Origin: Escherichia phage vB-Eco-KMB43
Sequence record: OR525698.1
Reading direction: 5' to 3' (one strand)
DNA: 64,000 nucleotides
In this document: piece by piece, positions 16,651-29,739 of the stretch
Numbering within the stretch: position 1 is the first letter of the stretch
Layout: each line of letters opens with the position of its first letter
Translations under genes and position numbers: made by a program
The notes under the pieces: generated by a model
What the model was told of the DNA's origin: nothing
Database searches by the model: none
Seen by the model: the letters and a program-made list of their open reading frames with translations, nothing else

Positions 16651-17247
16651 TTATTTGGTAGTACCGTCAATAAAATGTTTACGACACACAGAAACATATT
16701 TATCCTCTGCACCAACTTCTATTTGAGCACCATCGCGAATAACATTACCATCTTTATCTACGCGAAGGACCATAGTCGCTTTCTTGCCACAATGACAAAT
16801 ACCCTTCATTTCGACCAGTTTATCAGCAAATGCCATTAATGCCGTAGATCCTTCAAATAGATTGCCCTGAAAGTCAGTGCGAAGGCCATAGCACAGTACA
16901 GGGATATTAGCATCATCAACAAGCGCACACAAGCCTAAAACATGCTCTTTAGTCATAAATTGGGCTTCGTCTACAAAAACTGCATCTGGACGCCATCGAT
17001 CCGGTCTACGCTTACCTAACGATTCACGATAAACCAAGTCGAAAAGATCATCCGATTTAGTGAAGGTGATCGCTGGAGCACTTAGGCCAATTCGGGAAAC
17101 GACTTCACTTTCTGAATCTCGATTATCAATCGCTGGCTTAAGAATTAATACTCGCATATCACGTTCGGTATAGTTATAAGCACTTTGTAACAGAGAAGTT
17201 GATTTGCCAGCGTTCATAGATGCATAGTAGAAATATAATTGCGCCAT
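16651..17247 (-). CDS. tk: thymidine kinase
   Basis: P-loop YFYYASMNAGKST, VDEAQF, CYGLRTDFQG and C-terminal Cys cluster match bacterial/T4 thymidine kinases as recalled. Confidence 0.9.
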   Translation of the reverse strand: MAQLYFYYASMNAGKSTSLLQSAYNYTERDMRVLILKPAIDNRDSESEVVSRIGLSAPAITFTKSDDLFDLVYRESLGKRRPDRWRPDAVFVDEAQFMTKEHVLGLCALVDDANIPVLCYGLRTDFQGNLFEGSTALMAFADKLVEMKGICHCGKKATMVLRVDKDGNVIRDGAQIEVGAEDKYVSVCRKHFIDGTTK

Positions 17248-17540
17248 TAATTAATCTCCAAAAATCCAACAAGGCCTAAACCGATATAAGTCCAGATACC
17301 AATGAAAAAGATGTTAATGCTCATGGCAAGGATAAACCCTTTCAGAGTTTTGGGATACCCGACCCAATATTCCCGACCATCTTCTAACCGGATCAACTTA
17401 TTGCCTTGCGAGTCCATATCAACTACAACATGTTTATTTCGAGATTGCAATAGATATTGTTTTACAATCTCTACACCCGCCATAATAACAATAACGAAAA
17501 TAAAAGTCCACACAACAAGATTAATGATAGTCTCAAGCAT
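17247..17540 (-). CDS. small membrane protein (2-3 TM)
   Basis: ORF track; long hydrophobic stretches. Confidence 0.5.
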   Translation of the reverse strand: MLETIINLVVWTFIFVIVIMAGVEIVKQYLLQSRNKHVVVDMDSQGNKLIRLEDGREYWVGYPKTLKGFILAMSINIFFIGIWTYIGLGLVGFLEIN

Positions 17541-17775
17541 TTTCTATCACCTCCACCCAATCAGGTGTTTCCTGAAAGACTCCTTCACCTTCATGATGGT
17601 CGCAACCTTTATTGCTGCAATACATCCACCAATCCCACATTCCCCACGGTAAACGCTGCATATCGTCGTTACAGCAAGTGAAGATAATAGGCCAACCACA
17701 TCTAACACATCGGCAGTTTTCCTTCATGTGTGCGGTATTAGGCTTCTTCATAGATGACTCCAATATAATCGACAT
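17533..17775 (-). CDS. small Cys-rich (zinc-finger-like) protein
   Basis: CRCVRCG...CC...C...C..H pattern. Confidence 0.5.
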   Translation of the reverse strand: MSIILESSMKKPNTAHMKENCRCVRCGWPIIFTCCNDDMQRLPWGMWDWWMYCSNKGCDHHEGEGVFQETPDWVEVIENA

Positions 17776-17978
17776 TTACATTTAGGGCAATGCGGTTCTT
17801 TAATATAATACCCGTCTGTCTTTGGAACACTAACAGGAGCGGTTTTTATATTGTATTCAGTGAAACAACGAAAACAAGTTACGTTTTCTACAGACTGACG
17901 TTTCACCCAATCACCGGAATATAGATCATTTTTATTTGTCATATTCAACCACCACAATGTTAATGTCTGGAGTAGCAA
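17748..17978 (-). CDS. small zinc-ribbon-like protein
   Basis: CFRCF ... CPKCKC cysteine pairs. Confidence 0.5.
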   Translation of the reverse strand: MLLQTLTLWWLNMTNKNDLYSGDWVKRQSVENVTCFRCFTEYNIKTAPVSVPKTDGYYIKEPHCPKCKCRLYWSHL

Positions 17979-18387
17979 TATTAATGATCTCTTCTACACA
18001 TTCCCACTCAAGGCCACCGATACCGCAACCGATTTTAGGAATATAGAAAGGCTGTATAGCACCTTCAAAAACATCATTGATAGTCTCAAATCCTTTCAGG
18101 ATAGCACCATATTCAGCATTTGGACCCGGTCGGAATTGGGTATAGAGATTCACCCCGCACCAGTTATAACCATTAACTTGATGCGTCCAGACACTAAACC
18201 CACCCAGCTTTTCTACCTTACCGCGAGAAGTTTGCTTGTCAATCTCTAACGCTTGCGGGAACTCTTTCGCGATCTTTGCAGCAATACCAGCGCCCATAGT
18301 ATGAAAACAATTACAACCATGAATTAAATGACCGTTTCCTTGTTTAAACAGGGCGATGAGATCGCCCTTTACAGTATCAATAATCAT
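17932..18387 (-). CDS. macrodomain protein (TARG1/DarG-like ADP-ribose hydrolase fold)
   Basis: GDLIAL...HGCNCFHTMGAGIAAKIAKEF matches the TARG1/OARD1-type macrodomain signature as recalled; 151 aa. Confidence 0.6.
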   Translation of the reverse strand: MIIDTVKGDLIALFKQGNGHLIHGCNCFHTMGAGIAAKIAKEFPQALEIDKQTSRGKVEKLGGFSVWTHQVNGYNWCGVNLYTQFRPGPNAEYGAILKGFETINDVFEGAIQPFYIPKIGCGIGGLEWECVEEIINIATPDINIVVVEYDK

Positions 18388-18402
18388 AATATAAACCTCT
18401 CA

Positions 18403-18762
18403 TTAGTCACGGGAAGACAACCCAGCCATAAAACGGCTTAACAGTGTGTCGCGATAAGCAAAGCATAATTGCTTATCAGGGGCAGTATCACAAAGGTTGC
18501 GTTTTGTTTTAGCAAAGCTGGCAATACTCAGATCCCATGCTCGATTTTTTCGTTTTTCGTCTCGACCTTGTTTGTATGCTTCGTCGAGTTCAAGTGCGAT
18601 AAAATCACTACACATGTTATCATCATCACAGAAAGTTTTAATGATCTTTTTGTTGATCTCAAATCCTTTGTATTCGAACTTTGGATAAGGGCGCTCATTA
18701 CTAGCAAGCGCACCAGCCGAGAACATCATAGCAATCATAGCAATTATTGTCAACTTTTTCAT
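18403..18762 (-). CDS. secreted Cys-containing small protein
   Basis: MKKLTIIAMIAMMFSAGALA signal peptide. Confidence 0.5.
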   Translation of the reverse strand: MKKLTIIAMIAMMFSAGALASNERPYPKFEYKGFEINKKIIKTFCDDDNMCSDFIALELDEAYKQGRDEKRKNRAWDLSIASFAKTKRNLCDTAPDKQLCFAYRDTLLSRFMAGLSSRD

Positions 18763-28156: not shown

Positions 28157-28399
28157 TCATAGATCACAGAGCCATCTTAAAGCACCACATAAAGCGAGCA
28201 GAATACTAGGTATAAACGAGATCAAAACAAGTTTGCAAAAATCATCTAAGGTAATACCGGAATAGATACCAACTGTAACAACACCGATCATCAGACACAG
28301 AAAGAAAACAAATGCAATCAGAAACAAAGTATTGCTAAACAGTTTAGTGATCATTAGACACCCCACGACGATCAATTTCAAAAACTTTTTTATCATCAA
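28157..28399 (-). CDS. small membrane protein
   Basis: ORF track. Confidence 0.45.
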   Translation of the reverse strand: MMIKKFLKLIVVGCLMITKLFSNTLFLIAFVFFLCLMIGVVTVGIYSGITLDDFCKLVLISFIPSILLALCGALRWLCDL

Positions 28400-28547
28400 C
28401 GAAGCATGTCACAACTGCCTCGTTGACTTCCGCAAATTGTTGTGTTACCCACTTAAGGTCAGAGCGAAACAATGTTCTATTAATAACAAATGTTTTACCT
28501 TTCTTATCCATACCCATAAATTTTGCTTTAACCATATCCAATTCCAT
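28344..28547 (-). CDS. dmd: Dmd-like antitoxin (inhibitor of host RnlA/LsoA-type toxins)
   Basis: MEL.KV.FMG...DD..W.TQQ.AEVN.A.V..F.DDKKV.E.D.RG pattern matches T4 Dmd along its full length as recalled. Confidence 0.75.
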   Translation of the reverse strand: MELDMVKAKFMGMDKKGKTFVINRTLFRSDLKWVTQQFAEVNEAVVTCFVDDKKVFEIDRRGVSNDH

Positions 28548-29268: not shown

Positions 29269-29739
29269 TTACAGTTTGGTCGTCCACTCCAGGTCTAGAT
29301 CTTCGACATACTCATGAGATCGGACAATCTCTAAATCGAACTCAAGGTCAGTGCCAAATTTACGCGCACCAACATCATAAGAAAGCGTGATATGCGGTAC
29401 ATATTCAGGATAATCCCACGTCGCACCTAAAGCAGTGCCGATATCGTGTCTGAATTGCATGTAGTCGCTTTCAAATGCCAGCACAAGCGCATTAGTACCG
29501 GATTGAGTTTCAAACACTTTCAGATGGCATAGAGAGCCTAAGAACTTCTCCCCTTCTTCTGGGATAAACGGAACATAGACACGAGAATATAAGATAGTGC
29601 TATGCAGTTTATCACGAGGAACGGCATTAGGCAGATCGTAGAACTCCTGCAATTTTTCAATGCGGTCTAGTGTATCCTCAGTGAATTTAACCGCCGCATA
29701 TGTACCTTTAACGGATTCTCTAAACGGGGTCATAATCAA
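29269..29739 (-). CDS. 57B: 2H phosphoesterase, Acb1-type anti-CBASS nuclease (T4 gene 57B position)
   Basis: Two H-x-T/S motifs (HSTILY, HITLSY); position next to 57A and gene 1 as in T4. Confidence 0.75.
   Translation of the reverse strand: MIMTPFRESVKGTYAAVKFTEDTLDRIEKLQEFYDLPNAVPRDKLHSTILYSRVYVPFIPEEGEKFLGSLCHLKVFETQSGTNALVLAFESDYMQFRHDIGTALGATWDYPEYVPHITLSYDVGARKFGTDLEFDLEIVRSHEYVEDLDLEWTTKL

What the first reader, a model, noticed from the sequence alone, without database searches (positions are those of the whole stretch)
17247..18387. TARG1/DarG-like macrodomain protein with two small zinc-ribbon partners
ORF 17932-18387 has the GDL...HGCNCFHTMGAGIAAKIAKEF signature that I recognise from TARG1/OARD1-type macrodomains, the family that includes the DarG antitoxin domain that removes ADP-ribose from DNA. 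It sits in an operon with two Cys-rich small proteins and a small membrane protein. A phage copy could reverse host ADP-ribosylation defences such as DarT, or tune the phage's own ADP-ribosyltransferase activity. No signal peptide, so cytoplasmic.
Basis: partly seen in the sequence, partly recalled or inferred. Interest (0 to 1): 0.65.

Follow-up and report, generated by a model that had tools for sequence, protein, structure and literature searches.

The report
Phage Tk.4/AdfM macrodomain, already known
This is the RB49-type coliphage copy of the T4 gene tk.4, a small ADP-ribose-removing enzyme that in T4 was recently shown to protect the phage from the bacterial DarTG2 defence; the three small neighbouring genes are not demonstrable partners, so the finding is correct but ordinary.

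Summary
Four tightly packed minus-strand ORFs lie at 17247-18387. The 151-aa ORF (17932-18387) is a high-confidence macrodomain of the TARG1/DarG/SCO6735 class (Pfam Macro above cut-off; AF2 pLDDT 97; Foldseek TARG1 E 8e-11, DarG TM 0.76-0.80).

The window is a Krischvirus (RB49/JSE-like T4-type phage, 98-99% identical). The ORF is 100% identical to the gene JSE annotates as tk.4. It is 44% identical over its full length to T4 Tk.4 and sits in the same regB-vs.1-vs-tk.4-...-tk position.

T4 tk.4 was named AdfM in a 2025 preprint: it was the only T4 gene needed to resist DarTG2.

One refinement: the catalytic Lys of TARG1 (K84) and DarG (K80) is a near-invariant Gln here (Q84), and TARG1 D125 is Gly. 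This matches Streptomyces SCO6735, whose Gln85 is essential and which cleaves thymidine-linked ADP-ribose on DNA.

The "partners" claim is not supported. T4 has unrelated genes in those slots, and the four families occur in 2731, 233, 785 and 58 phage records. Only one zinc-ribbon gene travels with the macrodomain, into rV5-like phages. Low interest.

The parts
17932..18387 (-). tk.4 / adfM ortholog: 151-aa orphan macrodomain (TARG1/DarG/SCO6735 class, Gln-type active site: H23, N26, Q84, G122)
   Evidence: Pfam Macro 28.7 bits. PDB profile hits to BT1257, TARG1, SCO6735 and DarG at E 1e-16 to 1e-11. AF2 pLDDT 97.4. Foldseek TARG1 E 7.6e-11, DarG TM 0.76-0.80. 43.8% identity to T4 Tk.4, E 4e-44. 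100% identical to the JSE gene annotated tk.4.
18396..18399 (-). Shine-Dalgarno GAGG, 8 nt upstream of the macrodomain ATG; the vs stop codon lies at 18403-18405
   Evidence: Read directly from the sequence.
17748..17942 (-). Neighbour 1: 64-aa four-Cys zinc ribbon (Pfam PF23903 Phage_zn_bind_2). It overlaps the macrodomain gene by 11 nt. Function unknown; not shown to be a partner.
   Evidence: Pfam E 1.1e-23. C23, C26, C52 and C55 are invariant in 9 homologs. It lies near the macrodomain only in Krischvirus and rV5-like phages; elsewhere it has other neighbours.
17533..17751 (-). Neighbour 2: 72-aa Cys/His-rich protein (Pfam PF23895 Phage_zn_bind), with an ATGA start/stop overlap with neighbour 1. 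Function unknown.
   Evidence: Pfam E 5.6e-34. A homolog occupies the tk.4-tk interval of RB14 but not of T4. It carries an in-frame stop in a natural Krischvirus variant.
17247..17540 (-). Neighbour 3: 97-aa protein with two predicted transmembrane segments. It is Krischvirus-specific and unusually variable.
   Evidence: PHROG 16027. Found only in 58 Krischvirus records at 82-100% identity. Hydropathy.

Best explanation
The 151-aa ORF is the Krischvirus ortholog of T4 Tk.4 (AdfM). It is an early-expressed, cytoplasmic, stand-alone macrodomain.

Proposed mechanism: it binds the ADP-ribose that the host toxin DarT2 attaches to thymidine in single-stranded phage DNA and hydrolyses it, restoring replicable DNA. 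It therefore acts as an orphan copy of the enzymatic half of the DarG antitoxin. It lacks DarG's C-terminal DarT-binding domain.

Its active site is of the SCO6735 type: a Gln where DarG and TARG1 have the catalytic Lys, and no Asp partner. Catalysis is therefore probably through a positioned or activated water rather than a lysine nucleophile.

The three small downstream genes (two zinc-binding proteins and a membrane protein) are independent cargo of a variable gene slot between tk.4 and tk, not subunits.

Shown here: fold, family, orthology, synteny and residue conservation. Taken from the literature on the ortholog: the anti-DarTG2 phenotype. Inferred: activity of this particular protein, its substrate, and its catalytic chemistry.
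For: Fold and family:
- Pfam Macro is above its cut-off.
- A family profile hits BT1257, TARG1, SCO6735, Mtb and Taq DarG at E 7e-16 to 8e-11.
- The AF2 model has pLDDT 97.4.
- Foldseek top hits are TARG1 (E 7.6e-11, TM 0.78/0.84), Poa1p and DarG.
- The PADLOC DarG model scores 50.8 bits over its macrodomain part.

Orthology:
- 43.8% identity over the full length to T4 Tk.4.
- The regB-vs.1-vs-tk.4-...-tk order is identical in T4, RB14, JSE and metagenomic T4-likes.
- JSE and Phi1 already annotate the gene as tk.4.

Function of the ortholog:
- tk.4 was the single T4 gene depleted on a DarTG2 host, and a clean knockout sensitised T4 (10.1101/2025.11.20.689424).
- T4 lacking adfA and adfN stays DarTG2-resistant (PMC11825919).

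Active site:
- Q84 aligns with TARG1 K84, DarG K80 and SCO6735 Q85.
- H23, N26 and G122 align with SCO6735 H24, N27 and G128.
- Q84 occurs in 86 of 87 and N26 in 87 of 87 family members, including T4.
- SCO6735 Q85 is essential, and the enzyme cleaves dT-ADPr DNA and protects against DarT (PMC9411070).

Context:
- The gene lies in the same early region as two other anti-defence genes, Acb1 and Dmd.
- A sharp allele-replacement patch confined to this gene in a natural variant would be consistent with arms-race pressure; no selection test was run.
Against: - Nothing was measured for this protein. The phenotype comes from a 44%-identical ortholog and from a preprint.
- No biochemical de-ADP-ribosylation has been reported for any member of the Tk.4 clade. 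The biochemically tested phage AdfM (PhiKZ gp104) is a different, Lys-type clade, only 26% identical.
- Similarity to Poa1p (ADP-ribose-1''-phosphate phosphatase) and to TARG1 (protein and O-acetyl-ADP-ribose substrates) is as strong as to DarG, so sequence alone does not fix the substrate.
- The electropositive DNA-contact lysines of SCO6735 (K34, K89) are not conserved (A33, G88).
Confidence: 0.75

Rival explanations
1. It is a small-molecule ADP-ribose-derivative hydrolase: an ADP-ribose-1''-phosphate phosphatase or O-acetyl-ADP-ribose deacetylase. This is the legacy "phosphatase / A1pp motif" annotation. It would clean up NAD-derived metabolites, for example from RNA repair or sirtuin reactions, and would not act on DNA.
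For: GenBank records name it "phosphatase; contains A1pp phosphatase motif", and PHROG 335 is labelled phosphatase. Yeast Poa1p and TARG1/OARD1 are among the best sequence and structure matches. A bacterial family member sits alone among housekeeping genes with no DarT nearby.
Against: The only phenotype on record for the clade is specific loss of fitness on DarTG2. The nearby genes examined include no Tpt1/KptA or sirtuin annotation that would generate such metabolites. The annotation is a motif-based label from 2003, never tested. The activities are not mutually exclusive: SCO6735 and TARG1 act on several substrates.
Confidence: 0.1
2. It reverses ADP-ribosylation of protein or RNA rather than DNA. 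The targets could be modifications made by the phage's own Alt/ModA/ModB enzymes, or by another host ADP-ribosylating defence toxin.
For: TARG1 and SCO6735 also de-modify Glu/Asp-linked protein ADP-ribose (PMC9411070). The family is very widespread (2731 of 50,697 phage records). That spread could mean a more general role than countering one toxin family, although I did not compare DarTG2 prevalence.
Against: T4 ARTs make Arg-linked ADP-ribose, which to my knowledge TARG1-class macrodomains are not known to cleave; this was not tested here. tk.4 is non-essential on K-12 and conditionally essential only with DarTG2 in the T4 screen.
Confidence: 0.08
3. The four ORFs form one functional module. 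The zinc-ribbon proteins (especially the PF23903 protein) would act with the macrodomain, for instance by binding DNA or DarT and so replacing the missing DarG C-terminal domain.
For: The genes overlap and could be translationally coupled. The macrodomain and the PF23903 gene occur together, in the same order, in unrelated rV5-like phages at 68% and 78% identity, with DNA similarity confined to just these two ORFs. In the jumbo phages GAP32 and CBB the PF23903 homolog sits inside an NAD/ADP-ribose-themed cluster: NAMPT, a 2H/Acb1-like protein, Sir2, and Nudix-cREC.
Against: T4 AdfM works with unrelated neighbours, and tk.4 was the only screen hit. Closely related T4-like phages have DUF7202 or other fillers instead. 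PF23903 homologs in four other lineages have no macrodomain within 3-4 kb. The record counts are 2731, 233, 785 and 58. The PF23895 gene carries a premature stop in a natural variant. The Krischvirus-rV5 sharing can be a single co-transfer event.
Confidence: 0.07

Closest known systems
T4 Tk.4 = AdfM (anti-DarT factor Macrodomain; bioRxiv 10.1101/2025.11.20.689424)
   Same: Full-length homolog (43.8% identity, E 4e-44) of the same length. It occupies the same genomic slot between vs and tk. It shares the HGCNCFHTMGAGIA, NLYTQF and P-x-IGxGIG motifs, including Gln at the catalytic position.
   Different: 56% of residues differ. The downstream small genes are unrelated. The Krischvirus protein has not been tested. 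RB49-type phages are reported to have unmodified cytosine DNA (my recollection; not tested here).
Streptomyces coelicolor SCO6735 (PDB 5e3b; PMC9411070)
   Same: A stand-alone TARG1/ALC1-class macrodomain with Gln (Q85 here Q84), His (H24 here H23), Asn (N27 here N26) and Gly (G128 here G122) in the active site. It lacks both the catalytic Lys and the Asp. It hydrolyses thymidine-linked ADP-ribose on DNA and protects against DarT without being a DarG.
   Different: A bacterial chromosomal protein with low sequence identity (23% in the Foldseek alignment). Its surface lysines K34 and K89, implicated in substrate handling, are Ala33 and Gly88 here. It has a longer insertion after the Gln loop.
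DarG antitoxin of DarTG2 (M. tuberculosis / T. aquaticus; PDB 5m3i, 5m31, 5m3e)
   Same: The same macrodomain class. It is the best single-sequence PDB hit (5m3i, E 4.8e-8) with TM 0.76-0.80, and the protein matches the macrodomain part of the curated DarG HMMs. The target reaction is presumably the same.
   Different: There is no C-terminal DarT-binding domain (151 aa against about 330-340). The catalytic Lys80 is replaced by Gln. No adjacent darT gene is present. It scores 48 bits against the NCBIfam equivalog cut-off of 250.
PhiKZ gp104 AdfM (Cell Rep 2026, PMC13309987)
   Same: A phage-encoded orphan macrodomain that counters DarTG2. It was shown biochemically to remove DarT2-made ADP-ribose from DNA.
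   Different: Only 26% identical. It is a Lys-type active site (N23/K78, as in DarG), is imported into the phage nucleus, and belongs to a different clade and phage family.
Human TARG1/OARD1 (PDB 4j5r)
   Same: The top structural match (E 7.6e-11, rmsd 2.5-2.6 A, 28-29% identity), with the same ADP-ribose-binding glycine loops.
   Different: The TARG1 catalytic dyad K84/D125 corresponds to Q84/G124 here.

Membership tests
Macro domain superfamily (Pfam PF01661) | Profile match above the curated gathering score | tested here: met
   28.7 bits against a cut-off of 22, covering profile positions 1-118 of 118.
Macro domain superfamily (Pfam PF01661) | Three-layer alpha/beta/alpha macrodomain fold | tested here: met
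   AF2 pLDDT 97.4, pTM 0.91. 208 PDB matches at E<=0.001; the ranks shown are macrodomains or macrodomain-like proteins (TARG1, Poa1p, DarG, BT1257, viral nsP3/Nsp3) apart from the OSH55 designed serine hydrolase variants at ranks 19, 20, 25, 32 and 33.
Macro domain superfamily (Pfam PF01661) | Glycine-rich ADP-ribose-binding loops | tested here: met
   M31-G-A-G34-I-A36 and G120-x-G122-I-G-G125 are invariant or nearly invariant in 87 homologs and align with the TARG1, DarG and SCO6735 loops.
TARG1/OARD1 enzymes | Catalytic Lys84-Asp125 dyad | tested here: not met
   The profile alignment places Gln84 at K84 and Gly124 at D125.
DarG antitoxin (NCBIfam NF048014 equivalog; PADLOC DarG) | Full-length match above the curated cut-off, including the C-terminal DarT-binding domain | tested here: not met
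   48.4 bits against a cut-off of 250. Only model positions 2-141 of 338 (NCBIfam) and 3-141 of 329 (PADLOC) are matched.
DarG antitoxin (NCBIfam NF048014 equivalog; PADLOC DarG) | Catalytic Lys80 | tested here: not met
   Gln84 aligns with the first Lys of the DarG TKK motif. That Lys is chain index 90 in 5m3i and was equated with native K80 by assuming a 10-residue tag, which was not verified. The inference is cross-checked through the TARG1 K84 and SCO6735 Q85 alignments and the equivalence stated in PMC9411070.
DarG antitoxin (NCBIfam NF048014 equivalog; PADLOC DarG) | Encoded next to a darT toxin gene | tested here: not met
   The neighbours are vs, vs.1, regB, small ORFs and tk. No PADLOC hit was found in the three adjacent small proteins.
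Phage Tk.4/AdfM clade (T4-type orphan macrodomain) | Full-length homology to T4 Tk.4 | tested here: met
   43.8% identity over 153 columns, E 4e-44. PHROG 335 gives E 1e-61.
Phage Tk.4/AdfM clade (T4-type orphan macrodomain) | Conserved position between vs and tk in a T4-type genome | tested here: met
   regB-vs.1-vs-tk.4-...-tk is seen in the window, T4, RB14, JSE and metagenomic relatives.
Phage Tk.4/AdfM clade (T4-type orphan macrodomain) | Confers resistance to DarTG2 | not testable with these tools
   Shown only for T4 tk.4. It needs plaque assays with a Krischvirus tk.4 deletion or cross-complementation.
SCO6735-type (Gln) DNA ADP-ribosylglycohydrolases | Gln at the position of the DarG/TARG1 catalytic Lys, with conserved His, Asn and Gly | tested here: met
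   Q84, H23, N26 and G122 align with SCO6735 Q85, H24, N27 and G128. Q84 occurs in 86 of 87 homologs.
SCO6735-type (Gln) DNA ADP-ribosylglycohydrolases | Hydrolysis of thymidine-linked ADP-ribose on ssDNA | not testable with these tools
   This needs an in vitro assay on a DarT2-modified oligonucleotide.
   Both are absent from the T4 tk.4-tk interval. The closest other T4-likes carry other fillers. PF23903 homologs lack a nearby macrodomain in GAP32, CBB, KB57, an Alexandravirus and L009. Adjacency is seen only in Krischvirus and rV5-like phages.

The most novel reading that the evidence does not exclude
The PF23903 four-Cys zinc-ribbon protein (17748-17942) could be a trans-acting accessory of ADP-ribose/NAD-conflict enzymes. 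For example, it could be a DarT- or DNA-binding factor that supplies what the orphan macrodomain lacks relative to full-length DarG.

Three observations leave this open:
- It was co-acquired with the macrodomain by rV5-like phages.
- It overlaps the macrodomain gene in Krischvirus.
- In the jumbo phages GAP32 and CBB it sits between a 2H/Acb1-like gene and a Sir2 gene, in an NAMPT-Sir2-Nudix-cREC cluster.

Separately, the Gln-type active site implies that T4-type AdfM uses different chemistry from DarG and PhiKZ AdfM, and possibly has a different substrate range.
Probability: 0.08. Interest if true: 0.5.

Novelty: already known. Interest (0 to 1): 0.18.

Why it matters
Its value here is in annotation. 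The gene labelled "phosphatase" or "hypothetical protein" in the Krischvirus records listed, and in other records among the roughly 2,700 that carry the family, is very probably an anti-DarTG2 counter-defence enzyme. That bears on choosing phages for therapy against DarTG2-carrying strains.

The one point that goes beyond the published work is mechanistic. The T4/RB49 clade has the SCO6735-type Gln active site, not the DarG/PhiKZ Lys type. Two mechanistically distinct macrodomain clades therefore seem to have been recruited by phages for the same job. This is cheap to test, but incremental.

Tried and rejected
1. Zinc-ribbon and membrane "partners". I compared the T4 proteins Tk.1-3 (no similarity). 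I mapped family distributions. I inspected neighbourhoods in RB14, rV5-like phages, GAP32, CBB, KB57, an Alexandravirus and five metagenomic contigs. There is no conserved linkage, except macrodomain plus PF23903 in Krischvirus and rV5-like phages.

2. A sirtuin or NAD theme around PF23903 homologs. It is present in GAP32 and CBB only. It was not found in KB57, the Alexandravirus or L009, so it remains a weak lead.

3. A dedicated promoter or terminator for the four genes. Consensus scans gave counts no higher than shuffled sequence (20 against 16.6 promoters, 4 against 2.9 terminators). The best promoter-like site lies inside the vs coding sequence.

4. Membership in DarG proper was rejected.

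5. A single-protein scan of viral contigs with the 64-aa protein returned only 4 loci, too few for statistics.

6. JSE coordinates for 57B and dmd did not transfer to the window. The genes were relocated by tblastn.

7. The zinc proteins were not folded, and no macrodomain-zinc-protein complex was modelled. There is no multimer tool and no deep alignment for them.
Full report
**What is in the sequence**

The stretch 17247-18387 holds four minus-strand ORFs exactly as described:
- a 151-aa ORF at 17932-18387;
- a 64-aa ORF at 17748-17942 with five Cys;
- a 72-aa ORF at 17533-17751 with seven Cys and three His;
- a 97-aa ORF at 17247-17540 with two strongly hydrophobic segments and no Cys.

The quoted GDL...HGCNCFHTMGAGIAAKIAKEF string is present. 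The genes overlap by 11, 4 (ATGA) and 8 nt, and the last overlaps the tk start as TAATG. A GAGG ribosome-binding site lies 8 nt before the macrodomain ATG.

**Where the window comes from**

The 2.8 kb around the finding is 98-99% identical to 57 RB49-like coliphages of the genus Krischvirus, such as JSE, Phi1 and RB49.

The local gene order is regB (Pfam REGB_T4), vs.1 (SLT), vs, the macrodomain ORF, three small ORFs, then tk. This is the classical T4 order regB-vs.1-vs-tk.4-tk.3-tk.2-tk.1-tk. The JSE and Phi1 GenBank records already name the ORF tk.4, "phosphatase; contains A1pp phosphatase motif".

All genes from gene 3 down to nrdG run leftward in one long early-type block. The four ORFs are therefore not a distinct operon. 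Promoter and terminator consensus scans were no better than shuffled sequence.

**The macrodomain**

- Pfam Macro is matched over the whole model, above the gathering score.
- phmmer against PDB sequences gives M. tuberculosis DarG macrodomain 5m3i (E 4.8e-8), BT1257, SCO6735 and TARG1.
- A profile of 87 homologs raises these to E 7e-16 to 8e-11 and adds Poa1p and the Thermosipho DarTG fusion.
- AlphaFold2 with that alignment gives pLDDT 97.4 and pTM 0.91.
- Foldseek ranks TARG1 first (E 7.6e-11, TM 0.78/0.84, rmsd about 2.5 A), then Poa1p and the two DarG macrodomains (TM 0.76-0.80).

**Active site**

From the HMMER alignments I mapped residues.
- TARG1 T83-K84 aligns with T83-Q84 here.
- TARG1 D125 aligns with G124.
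- The first Lys of the DarG TKK motif (taken to be K80) aligns with Q84.
- SCO6735 H24, N27, Q85 and G128 align with H23, N26, Q84 and G122. The numbering offset reproduces all residues named in the SCO6735 paper, which validates the mapping.

Q84 is present in 86 of 87 family members and N26 in all 87. T4 Tk.4 has the same NLYTQF motif.

According to PMC9411070, SCO6735 lacks both TARG1 catalytic residues. Its Gln85 occupies the Lys position and is essential. The enzyme removes thymidine-linked ADP-ribose from DNA, probably through an activated water, and protects cells from DarT.

But the replacement is the known functional alternative.

**Relation to characterised phage proteins**

The ORF is 43.8% identical over its full length to T4 Tk.4 (E 4e-44).

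A November 2025 preprint (10.1101/2025.11.20.689424) reports that tk.4 was the only T4 gene depleted in a transposon library grown on a DarTG2 host. A clean knockout sensitises T4 to DarTG2, and the protein resembles the Mtb DarG macrodomain. The authors named it AdfM. Earlier work showed that T4 lacking adfA and adfN is still DarTG2-resistant (PMC11825919).

Independently, PhiKZ gp104 was also named AdfM and was shown biochemically to remove DarT2-made ADP-ribose from DNA (PMC13309987). I translated its published sequence. It is only 26% identical to the window protein and has Lys (K78) at the catalytic position.

Phages thus carry at least two clades of orphan anti-DarT2 macrodomains: a Lys type (PhiKZ) and a Gln type (T4 and RB49).

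**Not a DarG**

The curated DarG models match only through their N-terminal macrodomain part. PADLOC scores 50.8 bits over positions 3-141 of 329. The NCBIfam equivalog scores 48.4 bits against a cut-off of 250, over positions 2-141 of 338. There is no DarT-binding domain, no Lys80 and no darT neighbour.

**The "partners"**

- The 64-aa protein is Pfam PF23903. It has four invariant Cys (C23, C26, C52, C55) in nine homologs, so it is a CxxC...CPxC zinc ribbon.
- The 72-aa protein is PF23895.
- T4 Tk.1, Tk.2 and Tk.3 are unrelated to either, and to the membrane protein.
- RB14 has a PF23895 homolog inserted after tk.3.
- The nearest non-Krischvirus T4-likes have a DUF7202 gene instead.
- Another T4-like carries a PF23903 gene 1.7 kb away, beyond tk.
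- Record counts in the phage collection are 2731 (macrodomain), 233 (PF23903), 785 (PF23895) and 58 (membrane protein, Krischvirus only).
- PF23903 homologs in GAP32, CBB, KB57, an Alexandravirus and contig L009 have no macrodomain within 3-4 kb.
- A natural Krischvirus variant has an in-frame stop in the PF23895 gene.

The one positive signal concerns rV5-like phages. They carry the macrodomain (68% identity), a 56-aa ORF, then PF23903 (78% identity). DNA similarity to the window is confined to those two ORFs. This fits one lateral transfer of the two genes in that order (from DNA similarity confined to those two ORFs; no further test was run). It is weak evidence for a functional link.

In GAP32 and CBB the PF23903 gene sits between a 2H/Acb1-like gene and Sir2, next to a Nudix-cREC gene and near NAMPT. 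This is the sirtuin-centred neighbourhood described by Iyer et al. (PMC9503650). It is suggestive but was not reproduced in other lineages.

**Mechanism proposed**

The macrodomain is expressed early from the leftward transcription unit. It binds ADP-ribose attached by DarT2 to thymidine in single-stranded phage DNA and hydrolyses the N-glycosidic bond with an SCO6735-like Gln/His/Asn site. This removes the replication block.

Fold, family, orthology and residue conservation are shown here. The phenotype is taken from the T4 ortholog. Activity, substrate and chemistry of this protein are inferred. Confidence is about 0.75.

The rivals each hold about 0.1 or less:
- a small-molecule Appr-1''-p or OAADPr hydrolase, which is the legacy annotation;
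- protein or RNA de-ADP-ribosylation;
- a genuine four-gene module.

**Verdict**

The finding is real and was read essentially correctly. However, the gene is an annotated ortholog of a protein whose anti-DarTG2 role has been published, and the partner idea does not hold.

The modest additions are the Gln-type active site shared with SCO6735 and a recombination patch confined to this gene in a natural variant. Novelty: already known. Interest: low.

Noticed in passing
window 17950-18300, compared with L022/L023 (metagenomic Krischvirus contigs): In a natural Krischvirus variant, nucleotide identity to the window falls to 74-75% inside the macrodomain ORF (83% at protein level). The flanking vs, the zinc-ribbon genes and tk are 96-100% identical. 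This is a sharp allele-replacement patch confined to the counter-defence gene.
   Followed up: partly
L022 3637-3852 and L023 1768-1983 (equivalent to window 17533-17751): The PF23895 zinc-protein gene of that variant has an in-frame TGA at codon 14 (KENC*CVRC) in contigs from two sequencing runs. The gene may therefore be dispensable, or this may be a shared assembly error.
   Followed up: partly
window 17748-18387, compared with L003, L007, L008 and L010-L012 (rV5-like Vequintavirus phages): rV5-like phages carry the macrodomain (68% aa identity) and the PF23903 zinc ribbon (78%) in the same order, separated by a 56-aa ORF. DNA similarity to the window is restricted to these two ORFs, which would fit lateral transfer of the two genes between unrelated myovirus lineages; no further test was run.
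   Followed up: partly
L004 2474-2710 (Cronobacter phage GAP32) and L017 2929-3171 (Pectobacterium phage CBB): The PF23903 homolog of these jumbo phages lies between an Acb1-like 2H phosphoesterase and a Sir2 gene. A Nudt16-like Nudix-cREC fusion follows, and nicotinamide phosphoribosyltransferase lies upstream. This is an NAD/ADP-ribose-themed cluster described as a putative RNA-repair system in PMC9503650.
   Followed up: partly
window 17247-17540: The 97-aa two-TM protein occurs only in the 58 Krischvirus records. It is far more variable (82-100% identity; a 79% nucleotide-identity dip at 17300-17400 in L022) than its neighbours at about 98%. Its function is unknown.
   Followed up: no
window 29272-29733 (-) and 28362-28547 (-): The same leftward early region encodes two other known counter-defence proteins. 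One is an Acb1 anti-CBASS phosphodiesterase (Pfam Acb1 E 1.5e-51; labelled "RNA ligase" in JSE). The other is Dmd (Pfam Dmd E 6.6e-16).
   Followed up: partly
window 18725-18753 (-): The best sigma-70-like match in the region (TTGACA-17-TATGAT with a TG extension, 11 of 12) lies inside the first codons of vs, pointing towards the macrodomain gene. Promoter-like sites overall were no more frequent than in shuffled sequence.
   Followed up: no
window beyond about 21500, compared with JSE (L019): Window coordinates equal JSE locus coordinates through regB and nrdC.11. They then shift by about 290 bp before dmd and 57B, so the window differs from JSE by one or more indels in the block of small hypothetical genes.
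   Followed up: no
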